Below are positions 2,885-47,420 of a DNA stretch of 64,000 bases, piece after piece. Within the stretch, counting starts at the first letter, position 1, and each line of letters opens with the position of its first letter. Under the pieces are notes generated by a model. The model was not told the DNA's origin and searched no databases. It saw nothing but the letters and a program-made list of their open reading frames with translations. Both the position numbers and the translations under genes were made by a program. This DNA comes from Octopus vulgaris (taxonomy: Eukaryota). Location of the stretch: NCBI GenBank assembly GCA_951406725.2, contig OX597823.1, positions 41,540,001 through 41,604,000 of the forward strand, written 5' to 3'.

Positions 2885-3110
2885 TGTCTTGAAGCAGGTA
2901 GGACTTCAGTTGGTTTTTGAATCTGGGTTTTGGAGTTTCTCAATATGATTAACATTGGTGAGCTTACTGTAGAGGATGGTCTGGGAGTGTCTTGAGGGGG
3001 CCATTTGGATGACATGTTCTGACCATCTGAGGCAATGCTTAGGGATGGCAGCTTCAGTGCTTGGCATTTCTGAGTGTTTGAGGACTTCATTGCTGGTGCA
3101 TTGGTCATAT
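2885..3110 (-). pseudogene. RTE/BovB-type LINE ORF2 C-terminal fragment
   Basis: TSNEVLKHSEMPSTEAAIPKHCLRWSEHVIQMAPSRHSQTILYSKL matches the RTE-clade motif N.EVL.R..MPSIE......LRW.GHV.RM...R.PK.ILY.EL. Confidence 0.8.
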
Positions 3111-4641
3111 TCATTTAATGTCGACACATATATAATCATATTCACCATTGGATTTTGTTTTCTGTGCTGGTATAAGTTGGATGGTTTGATATGATTTTGG
3201 TGAGCCACAGGACCACATTCTACACCATGTCAGCTTTGGCATGGTCTCTATGGCTGGATGCCCTTTCTTATGCAAGTCACTTTACAATGTATACTGGGTG
3301 CTTTTTCCCATGTCACCAATGTTATTGGGGTTGCCAAGTTACTTGCAAGGCAGGAAAGGACAAGAAAAGGAAAAATGTCTGAAAGGGGAAGGTCTACTCA
3401 AATGATGGAAATATTTGGAGGGGTGGTGAGGAGAGTTCATATTAAGGACAAGTGGGTGTGTCTTACTATAGAAAAGATAGATGGCTATCCTGCATTTATA
3501 TAAGGGTGGATGGGAGTATCTCTGAGAAAGGTAAAGTGGTATTGATGGGGTACTGGAGCAAAACTCTCAAGATGCAAGAGATGATACAGGTAGTAAATCA
3601 GGTGGGGATAGTAACAGATGATTGAATATGTGGGTGGAGGTCAATGAAGTGACTCATGAATAAGGGTGGAGGTGTGGCTTCATGGAAAATATCATTATGG
3701 CAGGGTATAAGAAGAGTGAGATACGACTGGCTCAGGGACGATAGTTCAGGGAGAAATAGGTGCAGGGGGAGGAAGATGTAGAGATATGTGAGGGGTTGTT
3801 AGAGTGTGGGCATGGTGGTAGACAAGAGAGGGCACTGAGAAGGGAATGATCTATATGTGTGATTATGTAAATATATATATATATATATATATATCTTTGT
3901 ATGTATTCACACACACATACATGTAATATGTGTGTGTGTGCATTTAAAAGTCTACCCCATTTAATCTAACTTGAAAAATAGATATGAAACTAAAAACAAA
4001 AACTTATTTTTTGTCTTTGGTTTCTTTTAGATTTCCAATTATATCTTCCTGCAATTATTTGTCAGTTCATTCATGTAGAATTAACTATTGAGAGTATCTA
4101 AGATCTCAACAGAAATATTTAACCCAAAACTCATTGATGCAAAGTAATTTTTTCAGTTCTTATTAATTTCTGAAAATAGTTCCTGGCTAGAGGCAATCGA
4201 AAGAGCAAATTTTTTTATATTTGTCAGATAGAGCAACATTCCTCTCTTCTTTCTTTCACTTCTCTCTCTTTCTCTTTCTTCTTTTTCATATATTTCTGTT
4301 TTTCTTAATATGTCAACGTTGCCTTTACCATATTTAGTCTTCCATTTTCTTTACTTCTTTTTTTTTTTTGCATAAATAATATCTTGGTTATTTCCTCTCT
4401 ATCATATTTTCAACTTCTCAGTTCTTTTTAAACACACTTTCACACAACACACATACACATACAGACACATGCACACTTTCACTTTTAACACATTAATACC
4501 AGAAATTTAATAAATTTATATATCTGTATTATTAGCTCAATCAATGACTTATCCACTTATGTAAGGTGAAAAAAAAATAAAACAGATTTCAAATCTGGTT
4601 AGAATAGCTTGAAAATGATCCTCCTTCAGATTGACATGAGA

Positions 4642-19337: not shown

Positions 19338-19345
19338 CAATAATG

Positions 19346-19401
<56 letters not shown>

Positions 19402-19624
19402 CCCTTCTGCTGTAGGCACAAGGCCTGAAATTTGAAGGAGGGAGGATTAGTCAATTATATCGACCCCGCCCACTCCCAGTGTTTCATTGGTACTTACTTT
19501 ATTGACTCTGAAAGGATGAAAGGCAAAGTCAACCATGGCAGAATTTGAACTCGGAACATAAAGACAGATGAAATGCTGCTAAACATTTCATCCAGCATGC
19601 TAATGATTCTGCCAGCTGACTACC

Positions 19625-19691
<67 letters not shown>

Positions 19692-20360
19692 TGATGATAA
19701 TAATAATAATAATAATTCTTTCTAACATAGACTCAAGGCCTGAGATTTCAAGTGAGGGATTAGTGAATTACATTGACAACAGTGCTTAAATCGTACTTAT
19801 TTTATTGACCTAAAAGAAAATGAAAGGCAAGGATAACCTCAGCAATGTTTGAACTCAGAACATAAAGATCTGAAAGAAATGCCACTCAGCATTTTGTCTG
19901 TTGTGCTAACAATGCTGCCGCTTTCTAATTTTGGTACAAGGTCAGCAATTTTGAAGGAAGTAGATTGGTCAATACTATCAAAATTGATTGATACTTTATT
20001 TTATTGGTCTTGAAAGGATGAAAGGCAAAGCTGACTGACCTCAGTGGAATGTGAACTGCAAATGTAAACAGCTAGAAGAAATGCTCCTAAGTATTTTACC
20101 CAACAATGTTCTAATAATTCTGCCATTCTTCTGCCTTTATAATAATAATTCTTCCAAAGTTTTTTGCACAAGGCCAACAATTTTGAGGAGTCAGGGCTTG
20201 TCAGTTATATCAGGCCTAAGACTTGATGGGTATTTTGTTTTATCAACCCTCAAAACGATGAAAGACAAAGTTGGCCCAAGCAACATTTGAAATCAAAACA
20301 CAAAGATCCTGAAGAAATGTCCATTAAGCATTTTGTTTGTCAAACTAATGCACACCACCT
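19338..20360 (-). mobile_element. Head-to-tail array of four family A SINEs embedded in (AAT)n tracts
   Basis: Copies at ~19401-19627, 19717-19921, 19922-20137 and 20150-20360, all minus strand, mostly separated by aat repeats. Confidence 0.8.
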
Positions 20361-24602: not shown

Positions 24603-25844
24603 GACAAAAGTAAATAGACACCCTTATAATCATTAAAATTTATTCAAATCTGAAATTATACATTCAAATTATTTGTTAATTATTATAATGTGAATATCTA
24701 ATACTTAGTAGACATACATGCCCTTTGCATTTTCCAGTGCAAGAACCCTATTAGGCATGCTACAGATCAGATGACGAATATTCTATTAAGGAATTTCTTG
24801 CCAAGTTGCATGCAGTAATCTCAAAACAATCTGGATTTGAAGATGCTTTCTTTTTCTGTTTATGAAGTGCCCTGTCCATTTATGCCCCAGAGGTGTTCAA
24901 TAAGGTTCATATCTGGTGACTGGCTTGGTCTTGGAAGCTTTCTAATGCCATTCTCTTCTAACCAATCTTGGGTCTTTTTGGCTGTATGACAAGAAGCCCC
25001 GTCTTCCATCAATAGATAGTTTTCTTTAATCATTTCATCACTGGAAAAGATTGGAAGAAGTCCTTTCTGCAATATGGACACATATTTATCTGAGTTTATC
25101 TTTCCCTCACACTCCACCGGCTCTGATTGACTATTGCTCCAAATTTCTCCCTAGACTATCACAGAATAGCCAACATGTTTCATTGTTGGCTGCAACCTTT
25201 TTGTGTCAATTTCTTGATCACAGTCTCCAGACCCACATTCGACCACTGTCAGAAAATATAGCAAATCTGGACTCATCAGAGAATATGACATTGTACCAAA
25301 ATGCTAGTGACCTCTCCGCCAGCTCACTGGCCCATTTTTTTCTCTGCTTTTTATTTGCTGTTTGAAGAAGTGGTTTCCTTCTTGCTGCTCTGCCATAGTA
25401 GCTATGTTTGTGGAGATACCTGACAGCTGTTCTGGAACTGACATCAAAATGTTTTGTTATGTCAGAGGCCTTGCAATGATTATAATCCTCTACACTTCTC
25501 TTAACAAAGGGAAGGGTCCTGCCTTAGTCGACCTGTGCAAGGTGATGTGGACTCCTTCTCCTCTCTTGTGAATTGCTCAATCACTCTATTAACTGTAGAA
25601 AGTGGGATCCCATTGTGTTCTACGATTTTACACTGACTAAGTCCACCTTCAGATTAACCCACAATATGGCCTCTTTAAAATTCAGACAGTTCCAGGGCTT
25701 CTTTTGTATATGGCATGATTAAACAGTCACCTATAGAACCTGAAACATAAAAATGTCAACTAATAAAAAATATAAACGTTTCCAAGTTAAGACAAACATA
25801 AAACGATGTTTAACAGGGTGGCTATTTACTTCTTTCATGTCTGT

Positions 25845-39363: not shown

Positions 39364-41519
39364 TATCCTTTTATTGCAGTTATAATTAGTATTTTCAATG
39401 AAATTGCAACAAACTGATCTACAATATAGGTAGTAGTGCAAATCACTGCAGCCCACGAAAGTATATGCTGTAGTGAACAGTGTAAACTCTATCTACATTA
39501 CACTGTAACCAGGGTAACCAAAGATGTTCACCATCATTAGCACCATCATCATTAACACCATCATGAGTAACAGCAACATTTTATGTCTGCACTTCCATAC
39601 AGGCATGGGTTGAACAATTCTTTTTCTGAAGAAATGTTTTACTGGAAGATGCCCTTCCTTCACTTTGCCAACCCTTTTATGACATGCTAGAACATATGTC
39701 TATTCTAAAAGTGGAATAATCATGGGAATAGAGCAACCTAGGGTAGTAGAATTGAGTTATTAATTGTTCTTAAGTATTCAATCAGCTGCCTTCATGGAGT
39801 AACTAGAACAAGAACAGCAATAACAACATTAATTATCACCACTAAGAATGAGCCTCCTCATTCTTTTGAAAATGAATGGTCTAAATATACATACATGGGT
39901 TTCATCGTGATTTTTGTTGTCAATAAATTTCCATTACTTGTTTTTTTTCTTTTTCATTTAATTTTTTTTTCTTTTTTTTTTGTTTTCTTACTTAGTTCTT
40001 ACATTTATTTAATTTCAGATATGCAAAAAATAGTTTTTATTTCAATAAATTTCATTTAGACTCCTTTTGAATTCAGTACTAAGCAAATAATTTTCGATAT
40101 TCTTTATTTTATTTTTAATTAAATAAAATTAAATTTCAATTAGAGATCCATATTTCTGTTTCATTGCTTGCCAAATTAATATTTTTTTGTTAGTTATTAT
40201 GGAGTTAATTTCTAAATGTGAAGGAAGCAAAATATAGAATTTTTCTCTCTCAGACACAAGGTTAAATTTTCTTTGGCAGAACAGCAATATAACATTATCT
40301 CTTCTTTTATTGATTTCTTGATTGATGAGAGATGATTGATCCTGATGGCACTAAACTAGTTATTTTTCAGAAACCTGTTTAGCACTGTTCTGTTTACTGC
40401 AACACAATAATAAGAATAAAAAATAATAATGTAATTACATTGTACTAGAGATAGTTTCTTTTATAAGAAGGGAGAATTTAAATCCTTTGAATTGATCGGT
40501 GTCTTCTTGGGACCAAATCTCATATCACCGCCTTTTGTTCACTGAATGGAATCAACCTATTTCTTCATTAGATGAAATCCTGATGCAAAGAACCAGGAGA
40601 CTATATAGCCATCAGCTTATATGACACATATTTTATTGTTAACAACAATGATGATGAGGATGATGATGATGATGATGGTGGTTGTGGTGGTGGCAGTGGT
40701 GGTGGTGGCAGTGGCAGCAGCAATGGTGCCAGTGGCAACAGCGACAAGGAGGTAGAGAGGAAGGATTTCTGACATTGACAAGGGAAGAATATAATTGTAT
40801 GGATTGCTCTAGCAGTGCCTTGATATATATTTGATCCTATCTTAAAGGATGTAATGCAAAATTAATCCTGTTATTTTTCACTTCGAAACTAAGTAAACAG
40901 TGTGGAGAATGCCAAGAATCCATGAGAACTTTGTCATTTTATGTGATAGAATACAATCTTCAGAACAGATAATACCATCTGGGACACTAAATAACTAGTT
41001 TAATGCTAAACAACTTGAAAATAATTAGTTTAATGCTAAAAGTTTCCAAGTTAAAACCCTAACAGATTTACTTTTATTCTCCATCAATGTGAAAATACTA
41101 AGATAAATACTGATTATATACTAGGTATTCATCACAAATATCTTGCTAAGGACTAAATGATTTAGATGTATAACAGTAGAGTACAGTAGAGTACAGCCAG
41201 CCATTCCTTGGAAACCAGGACCATGCTTTCAGTCATGAATTTAGGTGTATGTGTAAAAAGGAATGAGTGTAGCCATTCTCTTGATTCTATCATTTTTGAT
41301 CCTTCAGAATATCTGAGGTGTGACAGATGGAGGGAGAGAAAACTGCACTAATACCCAACTGGTCCCTCATTTACATTTGAGTAGACTGGAGCAATGTGAA
41401 ATTAAGAACCTTCCTCAATGACACTGCACACTGCCCAAACCAAGATTGCAAACCTTTTTCTTTTTATCCTTATGATTGTAAGCCCAGCAGATTAACCACT
41501 GGGTCACATAGTTTCATAC

Positions 41520-42098
41520 ATGTATTGAAGTTTTGCATTTATAAAGCAAAGCATTATATATTTTTAAGCAAAATATTTTTATGGTGCTTCGTTTTGGTCC
41601 AAAGCATGCGAAGAATGTTTTTTTATTATTGTACAGAATCCACTTTTCATCACAAGCTACAATATGGTTGAGAAGCAGATCGGTCTTGTTATGGAGAAGT
41701 GATGAGCAAATTTCATATCTGTGCATTTTCTGATTTTCATTCAAATCATGTGGTACCCATTTGTCAAGCATTTTTAATTTTCCAATTGCATGCAAATGGT
41801 TGCAGACAGTTTTCTGGCCAACTTCTTTTGCCAGTTCTCAAGTAGTTTTACGTGGATCTTTCTCAATGATGGTCTTTGATTAAATATCATCAATGACAGA
41901 TGGACATCCACTATGCTCTCAATCTTCAAGGTTCGGGTCTCCACTGTGAAATCATTTAAACCATTTTGGGGCTAACCACTCATTGGTCATTTTCTCATCA
42001 AACATTTTGTTGATATCGTGAGCAGTTTCAGCTGCTTCAAGTCCCTTTTTAAAGTTGAATTGCAAAATTGCTTGAATATTGCACTTTGACAGTTCCAT
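41520..42098 (-). pseudogene. mariner transposase pseudogene, N-terminal half
   Basis: MELSKCNIQAILQFNFKKGLEAAETAHDIN...KWFK*FHSGD..LED...; KWVPHDLNENQK; IVACDEKWILYNN. Confidence 0.9.
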
Positions 42099-42959: not shown

Positions 42960-43666
42960 TGAAATTCTATAAGATGCTTTGAGCATAGATAACAGTGTTG
43001 ACATGAATTGAGTAAAAAATACAAACCTAATGACCAGGCATTGAGAACAATTTATATAATGTTTGTTATGTATGTCTATAATGTTGTTACATCATTATTA
43101 TGTAGGATTTATATGGAGTGTGGTGAAAAGTGTAGAGTATTAATGCATGAATGCAGTAAATTAGTTTTGAAGGAATATAATAGAAGGCACATTAATGTCA
43201 CACAAATTATCCATTGGGAAATATGTGGAATGTGTTATTTGGAAAAGTAATGGAAGCAAACGCCAGTCCCTTAATATAATTGAGTCCAAAGACATCAAAA
43301 GTCTTTGGTGTTTCAGCATTCAGTGTTCACTGCAGCCGTATGATAGAAAGTAGGAGACAGATATGGTTGTAATCAAAAAGCAGGCTAGAATGTGTAAAAT
43401 CAATATTGCAATACCTGGAGGATAGTAGAATTGGGATCAAGGAAGATGAAAATATTGAGAAATATAATGATCTTATGGCTGAAGTTGCAACTATCTTATG
43501 TTTCTAAAGAAGATTTATGTTAGTGGTTGGATGCTTAGGAATAAATAGTTTCTGTTTAATTAAAGGATGGGTTAATGTTTGGAAGGGACCAAAACTAGGA
43601 CATAATATCTTAGAAAAACTGCTTTGAAGACCAGCCAGAATATTCAGAGCGGTATTAGAGATCTAA
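42960..43666 (+). pseudogene. R4/Dong-clade (RLE endonuclease) non-LTR retrotransposon, 3' fragment
   Basis: QALRT.., CRI..CGE....HECSKLVLKEYNRRHINVTQIIHWEICG, then decayed R.D.VVI..IAIPG.SRI..KE.E.IEKY.DL and TARIFRAVLEI*. Confidence 0.8.
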
Positions 43667-44719
43667 GGTAAAATCTAAATAAAAATATTTCAAATGCAAT
43701 TGGGATTTTAGTTATTTTGTTGCTGTTTTTCCCAATGGCAGCATTCTCTGGAATACTATTACAACATCAAGAAAGGGTATAATAGAGTAGCAATAATAAT
43801 AATGATATCTTTCTTAGCCACTGGATACTTCGTGGTAATAAAAGTAGGAGAGTAGTATTAATGTTTGAGAGATGAAAGGCAACTTCAGTGGGTTTTGTAC
43901 TAACAACCTAAGTAATGAGTTTAGATACTTAACAAGCATGTATCTTGTCTGATTTTCTCCTCTAGATTTCTATCATTGAGATGAAGCCTCAGTTTTATTG
44001 GAAATAATAAGTTGTGTTGGTCATGTTTTATTCCAAGATTGTTAGAAATAAGCTATGTCTGTTCAATTAGCAAATGAAAAAATAAAAACAAGTATTGGTG
44101 ATAATGTAGGTGCCTGGTCTTGTGGTTAGAGGTGTTGGTCTTATGCTCATAAAAACAAGGATTTAATTCCTGAACCAGGCAATGTGTAGTGTGCTTCATT
44201 CCACATTACCCCCAATCTCCTCAGCTGTGCAGCTTTCTTTCTCTCAAGCCATCAGATCTTAGTTATTCCGCTGAATCAGATGTGCCAGGGCTCAGAAGGT
44301 GACTGTCTGTTCGCATTTAAATAAGCACCTAAAACTATTATTGAAAGCATAGTCTATACCACCAACTAATACCTGGCTGTACCCTATTGTACTTTCCTAT
44401 TATAATACATTTAAATCATTCATTCCTTGGAAAAATATATGTGATGAATACTTCGTATATAACTGGTGATTATTTTAGTACTTTCACATCGAGGATGAAT
44501 GAAAATAAATCTGGCTGGTTTTTAGTTTAATGACATTTAATATTAAACTAGTTATTATCATTAACCTAATTATTTGCTGTTTATAATTATAGTAACTATA
44601 TGAGAAAAATATAACGAAGTAATAGAGTTGTAGAACTTGTATCACTTATTATAGTAGTTATAACTTTATTACTTAGTCATATTTTTTAATTGTAGTTACA
44701 AAAATAATATTAATGATTA

Positions 44720-44817
<98 letters not shown>

Positions 44818-45007
44818 CCATTTTGCTGTATACAAAAAAAACTAACATCAATTACATCAATCCTAGAGCTTAACTGGTACTTATTTCATCAACTCTGAAA
44901 GGATGTAAGGTAAAGTCAACCTGGACAGAATTTGAACTCTGACTATAAAAATAGATGCCATTAAGCATTTTGTCCAGCATGCTGATGATTGTGTCAGCAT
45001 GCCACCT

Positions 45008-45049
<42 letters not shown>

Positions 45050-45066
45050 TAGTAGTAGTGGTAGTG

Positions 45067-45111
<45 letters not shown>

Positions 45112-45510
45112 ATTTTGACACAAATCCAGCAATTTCGGATCGGAGGAAAGTCAATGACATCAACCCCAGTGCTTAACTGGTACTTATTGACCTTGAAAGG
45201 ATTAAAAGCAAAGTCAACCTTGACAACATTTGAACTCCGAATATAAAGGCAGAAGAAATGTCACTGAGCATTTTCTGTGATGTGGTAATAATTCTGCCTT
45301 TATAATGCTATTAATAATGATGATGCTTAATTTAGGCACAAGGTCAGCAATTTTGTGGAGAGCCATCAATCCCTTTATTTGACAGGCAATGATAAGTACA
45401 TCATTCTCAAAAGTATGAAAGGCAAAGCTTATTTCAGTGGGATTTGAACATAATGTGAAAGACCGCAACAAATTTTTCCAATGTTCTAATGATTCTGCCA
45501 GCTCACTGCT
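44720..45510 (-). mobile_element. Array of three family A SINEs with (AAT)n and (TAG)n spacers
   Basis: (aat)n 44720-44817; copies ~44850-45008, 45110-45300 and 45325-45510; (tag)n 45008-45110. Confidence 0.75.
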
Positions 45511-45822
45511 TTATAAATTCACAGTAATAATAGGTTTGATAACTAAATTAAGAAAAATATAGCTAAGTAATATAAAGTAGCAGAATCTAAATCAATTGTT
45601 ACAGTAGTAGTAATAAAAACATAACACATTTGTAATAATAAGTATTTGTTAGAGTGTATTAAGAATGAATAGATAGGTTATTATTTTGATTCTTGCTCTT
45701 CTGTGTGCAAGTCATGAATTATTATCAGTTTGGTGGACATCAGTACGCTTCAGCAAAAAATTTACTTCGTGATTTCTATAAATAAAAGCCAGTACTCTTG
45801 TTTATATTCATTGATCCAAGAT

Positions 45823-45878
45823 GGTTTTTACTGTAGACATACACAAAAAGACTGAAACACCACGGTGTCTCAAAATCC
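45823..45878 (+). ncRNA. Degenerate type-I hammerhead motif (sister copies 46113-46165 and 46774-46828)
   Basis: CTGtAGA...GAAA, stem III acacc-ac-ggtgt, triplet GUC, stem I ggttttta/tcaaaatcc; the third copy retains the canonical CTGAAGA. Confidence 0.5.
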
Positions 45879-46304
45879 TATTACATCAATGAATCACAGA
45901 TGTTATTAACACATATAGTCTCAAGAGAGGAGGTATTTTCCAATCACAATAAACTACAACGATTGGCATATTCATGCTCAATTCATCCAGAAAATATTAA
46001 GAATTACTGCTTAGGTTCACACACACATACATACACATCACATACAGACGCTAACATGCATCAACAAAAAAAATTGCTTTCTGATTTCTGTTAACAAGAA
46101 CCCATTCTTATAGATTTTACTTAAGACACACTCAAAAATTTGAAACACTGAGGTGCCTTAAAGTCCCCTTATATCAATAAATCACATGTGTTATTAACAT
46201 TCATTTAGAGGAGGTGTTCTCAGATGACGTAATACAACAGTAAGCAGGTCAAAATGTTTGAATATGCCAAAATGTATTAAGAATGAATGTATCGAGAATG
46301 AGTG

Positions 46305-46622
46305 AAGGCACATGGCTTAGTGGTTAGGGCATTCACCTCATGATCGTAAGGTCATGAGTTCAATTCCTAGTGACATGTTGTGTCCTTGAGCAAGGCACTT
46401 TATTTTGTATTTTTCCAGTTCACACAGCTGGCAAAAATGAGGAGTACTTGTATTTTAAAAGATCAGCCTTGTCACCCTGTGTCATGCTGAATCTCCCCGA
46501 GAACAATCTGGAAGATACATCTGTCTGTGGAGTGCTCAGCCACTTGCACATTAACTTCATGAGCTAGCTCTTCCATTGATTGGATCAACTGGAACTCTCA
46601 CATCATAATCGATGGAGTACCA
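46305..46622 (+). mobile_element. tRNA-headed SINE with CORE/V-like centre and tail type 1
   Basis: ggcacatggcttagtggttagggcattc..gagttcaattcc..gtgtccttgagcaaggcact; 3' half matches the tail of 13768-14155. Confidence 0.8.
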
Positions 46623-47420
46623 GTTATGTCATTGTTTTGATTTTTACTCTTCTGCATACATCTCATGAATTATGAACTGTTTGGTAGTCATCAGCATGCA
46701 TCAGCAAATAGTTTGTTTGCCAATTTCTTTAAACAAAAACCAGTTCTGCTCACTAGTTCATTGACCTAGACTAGCCTTTACTGAAGAGACACACAGTTAA
46801 ATCAAAATACTAGGATGTCTCAGTGTCTCCTTACATCAATGTATCATGTGTGCTATGAATATATAAAATTTTAACAGAGGTGTTCTCCAATAATAAAATA
46901 CAACAGTGATCAGCAAATTCATGTTCAAATCAACCAAAATATATTAAGAATGGATAGATGCGTTATTGTATAATTTATAATAATTGTATTAACTAGATTA
47001 TAAAAATGTAACCAATATAGAGTTGCAGAATGTGTATCAGTTGTTATGATATTAATTATAAAATTATGATATTTCTTTTTTCAAAGCTCTTTAAATGTGA
47101 AGATGCATAGTTGATTGATAAATATTTCATACATTACAGACATTTATTTTATTAGGTTTCATTCACATTGATGAAATACAAAGATAGTCTTGGTGAGATT
47201 TTGTATTTCAAAGATGAAATACAAAGATAGTCTCAGTAGAGAATATTTCAAGAAAATATGCTTATATATATATATATATGTATATTCATGAAATGCAAGT
47301 GGTATTATATATACCACTTGCAATCAATTAAAACATGAATAAAATTTTGTATTAGTACCAATTTCCATCGTATCCAGCATTGAAAAGAAAACAAGAATAT
47401 TTTGTGTATTTTCTGTTTAC

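What the first reader, a model, noticed from the sequence alone, without database searches (positions are those of the whole stretch)
45677..46957. Ancient trimeric array of hammerhead-bearing units (retrozyme-like)
Three diverged units, with core-to-core spacing of 289 bp and ~343 bp after removing the SINE. At the same position in each unit lies ttta-CTGAAGA-(stem II)-GAAAcacc-nn-ggtGTC, each copy broken at different nucleotides (CTGtAGA; CTtAAGA and GcC; aAAA from CpG decay). Head-to-tail multimers are what reverse transcription around a circular RNA would insert.
Basis: partly seen in the sequence, partly recalled or inferred. Interest (0 to 1): 0.7.

Follow-up and report, generated by a model that had tools for sequence, protein, structure and literature searches.

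The report
Fossil hammerhead retrozyme trimer in octopus
Three old, head-to-tail copies of a ~340-base non-coding repeat each carry a broken version of what was likely a self-cutting hammerhead RNA, so this is probably a dead copy of a kind of small jumping element already known in other animals.

Summary
The trimer is real. Three ~338-nt units, 30-33% diverged and about equidistant, lie at 45655-46967, with a SINE inserted between units 2 and 3. Each has a type I hammerhead layout at the same position. All 11 core letters are canonical in at least two of three copies (majority beats shuffles: 5/3000 and 13/2000), but every copy is broken and no single copy stands out from background. Stem III and a long stem I pair. 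Stem II pairs in none of the three; it shows only in related copies elsewhere (GAC/GTC, low-agreement consensus). Sequencing contigs show a dispersed family of at least ~40 old, single-copy-depth relatives, and an ortholog in a second species broken at other core letters. The core decays at background rate, so the locus looks dead. Best reading: a fossil non-LTR retrozyme, probably copied by Penelope-type enzymes. Copying around a circle fits but is not shown; no intact or young copy was seen, and there is no inverted arm. The scan has already noted many young, intact retrozymes in this genome, so this adds mainly age. Interest is low.

The parts
45655..46967 (+). Whole array: about 3.1 head-to-tail units of a ~338-nt non-coding repeat, interrupted by a SINE; homology may begin as early as ~45643
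   Evidence: (D13-D15, D18); related contigs start aligning near 45643
45657..45682 (+). Leading copy of the 26-nt terminal redundancy (unit end/start junction)
   Evidence: 88% identical to 46942-46967
45667..46004 (+). Unit 1, full length (338 nt)
45806..45894 (+). Decayed type I hammerhead 1: core 45831-45869, A6 changed to T (45834), stem II closing pair lost; intact 4-bp stem III; 10-bp distal stem I (45806-45815 with 45885-45894); predicted cut after 45869
   Evidence: ortholog keeps A at 45834 but has lost A13
46005..46284 (+). Unit 2, with its start replaced by CA-rich sequence and the distal 5' arm of stem I deleted
46120..46157 (+). Decayed hammerhead core 2: G5 changed to T (46122), U16.1 changed to C (46156)
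46302..46623 (+). High-copy SINE with tRNA-like A and B boxes, inserted at the unit 2/3 junction after a 15-nt tandem duplication (46271-46301); not part of the unit
   Evidence: summed contig depth up to 4e6, loose ends at 46301/46302, and a related contig that joins 46287 to 46628 without it; TRF; A/B boxes read from the sequence, box consensus recalled; ARAGORN finds no tRNA
46622..46951 (+). Unit 3
46781..46819 (+). Decayed hammerhead core 3: CTGAAGA and G10.1-C11.1 intact, G12 changed to A (46804), one stem III pair broken
46942..46967 (+). Trailing copy of the terminal redundancy
45527..45618 (+). Left copy of a ~90-nt AT-rich direct repeat flanking the array (possible long target duplication, unresolved)
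   Evidence: 70.7% to 46977-47063; above all 1000 shuffles; single-copy depth
46977..47063 (+). Right copy of the flanking repeat; a third copy lies at 44583-44669

Best explanation
This is a decayed three-unit array of a dispersed, non-coding ~338-nt repeat whose units each carry a broken type I hammerhead motif, most likely a dead non-LTR retrozyme insertion. Inferred mechanism: an ancestral copy was transcribed as a multimer, and the hammerheads would have cut it into ~338-nt monomers, which in coral, mussel and axolotl become circles. A borrowed reverse transcriptase, most likely of a Penelope-like element, then wrote a little over three units into this site in one event. Since then the units have decayed independently and without selection, a SINE has landed in the unit 2/3 junction, and no copy would cut today. 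Shown: tandem anatomy, dispersed old family, canonical majority core, stems I and III, equal divergence, neutral-looking decay, presence in a second species. Inferred: ancestral stem II, cleavage, RNA intermediate, circular template (about 50%), Penelope helper.
For: All 11 core positions are canonical in at least 2 of 3 units, with 4 non-overlapping lesions; majority score reached by 5/3000 and 13/2000 shuffles; the best plus-strand descriptor hit in each unit falls at the homologous position. Named type I structure: 80% of 65 cells paired against 27-42% when slid; stem I 90% and 83%, stem III 83% (structure derived from these sequences, so this control is favourable by construction). Ortholog in organism E has the canonical A at 45834. 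Loose ends of related contigs give GAAGA-GAC...GTC before the GAAA strand (3 contigs, agreement 0.71) and C-GAAA, T-GAAA and CA-AAA forms, the signature of an ancestral CGAAA. Family: 41-46 contigs per DNA run share variants at 46916, each near single-copy depth; 20 and 24 contigs on the 166-nt hammerhead stretch; one related contig joins unit end to unit start without the SINE. Private changes 35/36/27 in 237 columns, no departure from a star (p 0.47). Size, GC 32% and layout match published animal retrozymes (150-450 bp tandem repeats, GC under 50%; mussel 350-390 bp; PMC7229834). Per-copy distance about 0.19-0.22 (half of JC 0.375-0.44) coincides with a Penelope-like/LINE expansion at JC 0.2 in Octopus vulgaris (PMC13282606); species match not established.
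Against: No intact or young copy seen; only partial alignments and 30-letter loose ends were available. Stem II is unpaired in all three copies (44%). Rfam gives no hammerhead hit even at E 10 on 421 nt, whereas an intact metagenome hammerhead is hit at E 4e-4 under the same settings. No covariation beyond shuffles (235/500). Stem I duplex is significant only in U1 (P 0.03; U2 0.23; U3 0.32), and U1's ranks 8th of 249 slid positions. A bulged C next to the core in stem I is needed for good pairing. Unconstrained folds and RNAalifold do not give the hammerhead. Circular folding is not unusually stable (z -1.0 to +1.4). The array ends do not lie at the cut site. No inverted second arm and no microsatellite target, unlike what scan notes describe for young families. 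No Penelope ORF remnant was found next to the array (stop-to-stop ORF list; Pfam on 6 chosen ORFs).
Confidence: 0.75

Rival explanations
1. Same hammerhead-bearing unit, but the trimer arose by DNA-level tandem duplication (unequal crossover) soon after a monomer or pLTR fragment of a Penelope-like element inserted, or by reverse transcription of an uncut multimeric transcript; no circle was involved.
For: Star-like divergence fits any rapid amplification. The ~90-nt flank repeat has three copies of the same age (71-76%), showing local duplication at that time. The 2026 preprint proposes local amplification of pLTR-derived units by unequal crossover. A Penelope protein used uncleaved RNA in vitro (PMC11167929).
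Against: The array is in circular permutation relative to the cut site with a short terminal redundancy, as expected from over-reading a circle. The 4-bp stem III is longer than the 1-2 bp or absent helix III described for most metazoan and minimal PLE hammerheads (PMC4209133). No PLE ORF was found alongside.
Confidence: 0.35
2. An ordinary old interspersed repeat or minisatellite whose likeness to a hammerhead is chance.
For: Single copies score like background; no Rfam hit; stem II unpaired; core conservation (4/33 departures) equals background (110/678; p 0.64).
Against: Perfect majority core with correct order and spacing plus stems I and III; canonical letters recovered independently from the ortholog and from related copies. 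Equal decay is what a dead copy would show.
Confidence: 0.12
3. The family kept moving after its hammerhead had lost activity, so the motif was already a relic when this array inserted.
For: U1 and U2 share a C at position 10.1 that cannot pair with C11.1; the hammerhead half is matched by fewer related contigs than the opposite half of the unit; an unchecked scan note describes such a family (e1-8672774).
Against: Core lesions are private to each unit and to each species; U3 and related contigs show G at 10.1.
Confidence: 0.12

Closest known systems
Metazoan non-LTR retrozymes (Cervera and de la Pena 2020, PMC7229834, parts 2-4 of 6 read; review PMC7761336, passages; bioRxiv 10.64898/2026.07.22.740005, parts 1-3 of 5 read), especially the 350-390-bp Mytilus repeats
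   Same: Tandem non-coding units of a few hundred bases, GC under 50%, one type I hammerhead per unit, dispersed family, no LTR features seen.
   Different: All three cores are broken, so it fails the preprint's definition of an active retrozyme (two consecutive complete motifs). No expression, cleavage or circle shown. Stem I is long with a bulged base next to the core; stem II is short with a ~10-nt loop.
Hammerheads in pseudo-LTRs of Penelope-like elements (PMC4209133, passages; PMC11167929, passages)
   Same: Type I hammerhead in a tandem, dispersed retroelement-like repeat.
   Different: Metazoan PLE motifs are mostly minimal (little or no helix III, long helix II); here helix III has 4 bp and helix II is short. 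No RT/GIY-YIG ORF found beside the array; no inverted arm.
Newt/axolotl satellite 2 (as described in PMC7229834)
   Same: ~330-350-bp tandem hammerhead repeat.
   Different: Those have a 1-2-bp helix III and work as dimers; here related copies are old and at single-copy depth, not homogenised.

Membership tests
Type I hammerhead ribozyme | Conserved core CUGAnGA / GAAA / UH in type I order | tested here: inconclusive
   Met by the three-way majority; not met by any single copy.
Type I hammerhead ribozyme | Helix III | tested here: met
   4 bp plus 4-nt loop; intact in U1, one pair lost in U2 and in U3.
Type I hammerhead ribozyme | Helix I closing the motif | tested here: met
   8 proximal pairs with a bulged base (83% of cells) and 10 distal pairs (90%); energy significant only in U1.
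Type I hammerhead ribozyme | Helix II | tested here: inconclusive
   44% paired in the three units; GAC/GTC in a 3-contig loose-end consensus, agreement 0.71.
Type I hammerhead ribozyme | Rfam hammerhead model match | tested here: not met
   None at E 10; intact control hit at E 4e-4 but below gathering score.
Type I hammerhead ribozyme | Self-cleavage | not testable with these tools
   Needs an in vitro assay.
Non-LTR retrozyme | Tandem 150-450-bp non-coding units, GC under 50%, one motif each | tested here: met
   338-nt unit, GC 32%, longest stop-free frame 85 aa with no Pfam hit.
Non-LTR retrozyme | Dispersed multi-copy family | tested here: met
   At least 41-46 related contigs per run at 80% or more; lower bound, no genome held.
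Non-LTR retrozyme (active) | Two consecutive units with complete hammerheads | tested here: not met
   Every core is broken.
Non-LTR retrozyme | Expressed as linear and circular monomers | tested here: inconclusive
   No listed holder on record as RNA; contigs cannot show circles or levels.
Non-LTR retrozyme | Target-site duplication longer than 4 bp, when present | tested here: inconclusive
   ~90-nt flanking direct repeat of the same age, but a third copy lies 950 nt upstream.
Penelope-like element | RT plus GIY-YIG ORF; inverted truncated arm or 30-40-bp tail | tested here: not met
   No such ORF near the array; no inverted arm; tail not testable without full copies.
DNA transposon / MITE | Terminal inverted repeats | tested here: not met
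   The only inverted match in 45500-47120 is a 40-nt hairpin inside the SINE.

The most novel reading that the evidence does not exclude
The array is a fossil of an extinct cephalopod retrozyme family that was written from a circular RNA during the Penelope burst at about 20% divergence, leaving a ~90-125-nt target duplication. It would date ribozyme-circle retrotransposition in octopuses to tens of millions of years before the young families, with a hammerhead variant (long bulged helix I, 4-bp helix III, short helix II with a 10-nt loop) for which my searches found no cephalopod paper.
Probability: 0.25. Interest if true: 0.4.

Novelty: new member of a known kind. Interest (0 to 1): 0.22.

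Why it matters
Modestly. My searches (and word searches in the O. vulgaris repeat paper and its supplement) found no paper on cephalopod retrozymes, but this scan already has notes on several young, intact families in the same genome that are far better material. This locus adds time depth: such arrays were being inserted well before the split from a related species, at a divergence matching a reported Penelope-like expansion, and they then decay without selection. That argues against a host function for this locus.

Tried and rejected
No genome is held, so no genome-wide search or proper family consensus was possible. Rfam: no hammerhead hit; intact-looking metagenome hammerheads also miss the gathering score (0 of 8 loci), so the gathering-level negative is uninformative. 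Metagenome pattern scan: 10 loci with intact-looking hammerheads sharing the stem III design, none tandem and none homologous to the units outside the core; this shows only that the design occurs in nature, and the pattern came from these units. Viral contigs: 0 matches. No RNA holder listed; two runs guessed to be RNA cover unit 1 at depth 2.1 and 3.4 with no joints, which is no evidence either way. RNAalifold gave only an alternative 6-bp helix. Circular folding z-scores were unremarkable. Coding-repeat idea rejected: no long frame, no Pfam hit for the 85-aa frame. Inverted arm and terminal inverted repeats: none. A minus-strand descriptor hit of 20 in U3 (46913) is at background level and not shared by U1 or U2. 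Earlier scan notes by sequence and by place near or in relatives: nothing, so I could not link this family to the young 360-nt one. The supplement of PMC7229834 could not be read; it may list mollusc repeats that bear on novelty.

Full report
Setting. The window is 34% GC, CpG-depleted (o/e 0.23), rich in microsatellites and SINEs, with no host gene evident in the ORF list. Earlier scan notes marked 'same genome' call it an octopus; I did not verify the species. No genome is held.

Observation. Three units are present: U1 vs U3 70.7% over 335 nt, E 1e-49; U2 66-69% to both. A profile finds no further copy in the window. The full unit is 338 nt. U2 has lost its start and the distal 5' arm of stem I, which explains the 289-nt spacing. 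A very high-copy SINE sits at about 46302-46623, and one related contig joins 46287 to 46628 without it. The array carries a 26-nt terminal redundancy and so holds about 3.1 units, starting and ending away from the predicted cut site.

The motif. At 45831, 46120 and 46781 each unit reads helix I arm, CUGAnGA, spacer of 15-16 nt, GAAA, 4-bp helix III with a 4-nt loop, UH, helix I arm. Four of 33 core letters are wrong, all at different positions: A6 in U1, G5 and U16.1 in U2, G12 in U3 (numbering and the necessity of these letters are established hammerhead knowledge, recalled). The majority has a perfect core. Shuffles reach its score 5 times in 3000 and 13 times in 2000 with a fuller descriptor. 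Single copies do not stand out: 16 other places in the window score as high as U1 and U2, and Rfam finds nothing while an intact control is found at E 4e-4. On the named structure 80% of 65 cells pair against 27-42% when slid, but covariation is at shuffle level and helix II pairs in only 44%. The stem I duplex is significant only in U1.

Outside evidence. Eight of 24 listed runs hold half or more of the locus's words. Laid at 80% likeness, the flanks are at single-copy depth (30-75 in three runs, 6-11 in the shallow fourth), while parts of the unit reach 3000-4400 in those three; 41-46 contigs per run share the variant at 46916, about 68 depth each in X1. On the 166-nt hammerhead stretch 20 and 24 contigs were laid, 16 and 19 of them under 90% alike. 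So this is a dispersed, old family with no sign of a collapsed young subfamily within reach of the tool. Loose ends upstream of the GAAA strand show GAAGA-GAC...GTC in a 3-contig consensus (agreement 0.71), and C-GAAA (2 and 3 contigs), CA-AAA (3, 5 and 1) and T-GAAA forms. That supports an ancestral CGAAA and a short helix II, though weakly; 41 loose-end rows were not shown. Contigs of organism E that run into the unique flanks are orthologous, 6-10% diverged. There A6 of U1 is intact, but A13 and a helix III pair are lost.

Age and selection. Private changes are 35, 36 and 27 in 237 shared columns (p 0.47): a star, as expected if three near-identical units arrived together. Unit distances (JC 0.375-0.44) are about 4-7 times the ortholog distance (0.065-0.105). 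The core departs at 12% against 16% elsewhere (p 0.64), and 2 of 11 core positions differ in the ortholog against 9 of 155 others (p 0.16). Nothing suggests selection on this locus. The per-copy distance of about 0.2 coincides with the Penelope-like/LINE expansion reported for O. vulgaris (PMC13282606, passages); this is a coincidence in scale, not a test.

Mechanism. Published animal retrozymes are 150-450-bp tandem repeats whose transcripts self-cleave to monomers, are circularised by a host ligase, and are proposed to be reverse transcribed as multimers by Penelope-like enzymes (PMC7229834; PMC7761336). A 2026 preprint ties them to pLTRs and also allows local amplification by unequal crossover. 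I commit to a fossil retrozyme (0.75). That the trimer was written from a circle is about even against copying a multimeric transcript or early DNA duplication. The permuted ends with a short overlap fit a circle, but a three-copy flank repeat of the same age shows that local duplication also happened here. The inverted second arm that scan notes describe for young families is absent, and no Penelope ORF remnant was found nearby (only 6 ORFs were scanned, and a badly decayed ORF would be missed).

Comparison and verdict. It works like, and is best filed as a dead member of, the metazoan non-LTR retrozymes; it fails the definition of an active one. My searches found no paper on cephalopod retrozymes, but the scan has many notes on young intact families, and one on an old decayed copy, in this genome (unchecked). 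I could not link this family to them by sequence. New member of a known kind; interest 0.22.

Noticed in passing
window 44583-44669, 45527-45618, 46977-47063: Three copies of a ~90-nt AT-rich repeat, 71-76% alike, at single-copy depth where laid. Only SINEs and microsatellites separate the first two; the array separates the last two. Long target duplication or old local tandem repeat.
   Followed up: partly
window 44705-45516 and 19339-20142: Same arrangement of microsatellite-linked SINE copies at both places (65% over 835 nt); this SINE family appears to stack in TAA/TAG microsatellites.
   Followed up: no
window 24860-25523 (-): Broken Tc1-type transposase: DDE_3 (E 3e-9) and HTH_Tnp_Tc3_2 (E 5e-10) in separate frames.
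   Followed up: partly
window 41514-41837 (-): Stop-free frame resembling a mariner transposase fragment (recalled resemblance); no relevant Pfam hit.
   Followed up: partly
window 43000-43670 (+): Decayed coding-like stretch resembling the C-terminal end of a restriction-like-endonuclease LINE (recalled resemblance); no Pfam hit for the 82-aa frame.
   Followed up: partly
window 45644-45747, 46684-46735, 46892-46943: The half of the unit opposite the hammerhead is matched by more related contigs than the hammerhead half; it might hold a conserved promoter, as scan notes suggest for other families.
   Followed up: no
window 45650-45673: The ortholog in organism E lacks 24 nt at the start of the array, covering most of the leading terminal redundancy.
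   Followed up: no
L002:1201-1241, L003:486-526, L007:1201-1242, L009:1201-1234: Intact-looking hammerheads on metagenome contigs that also carry tRNA genes or a permuted tmRNA; all below Rfam's gathering score.
   Followed up: no
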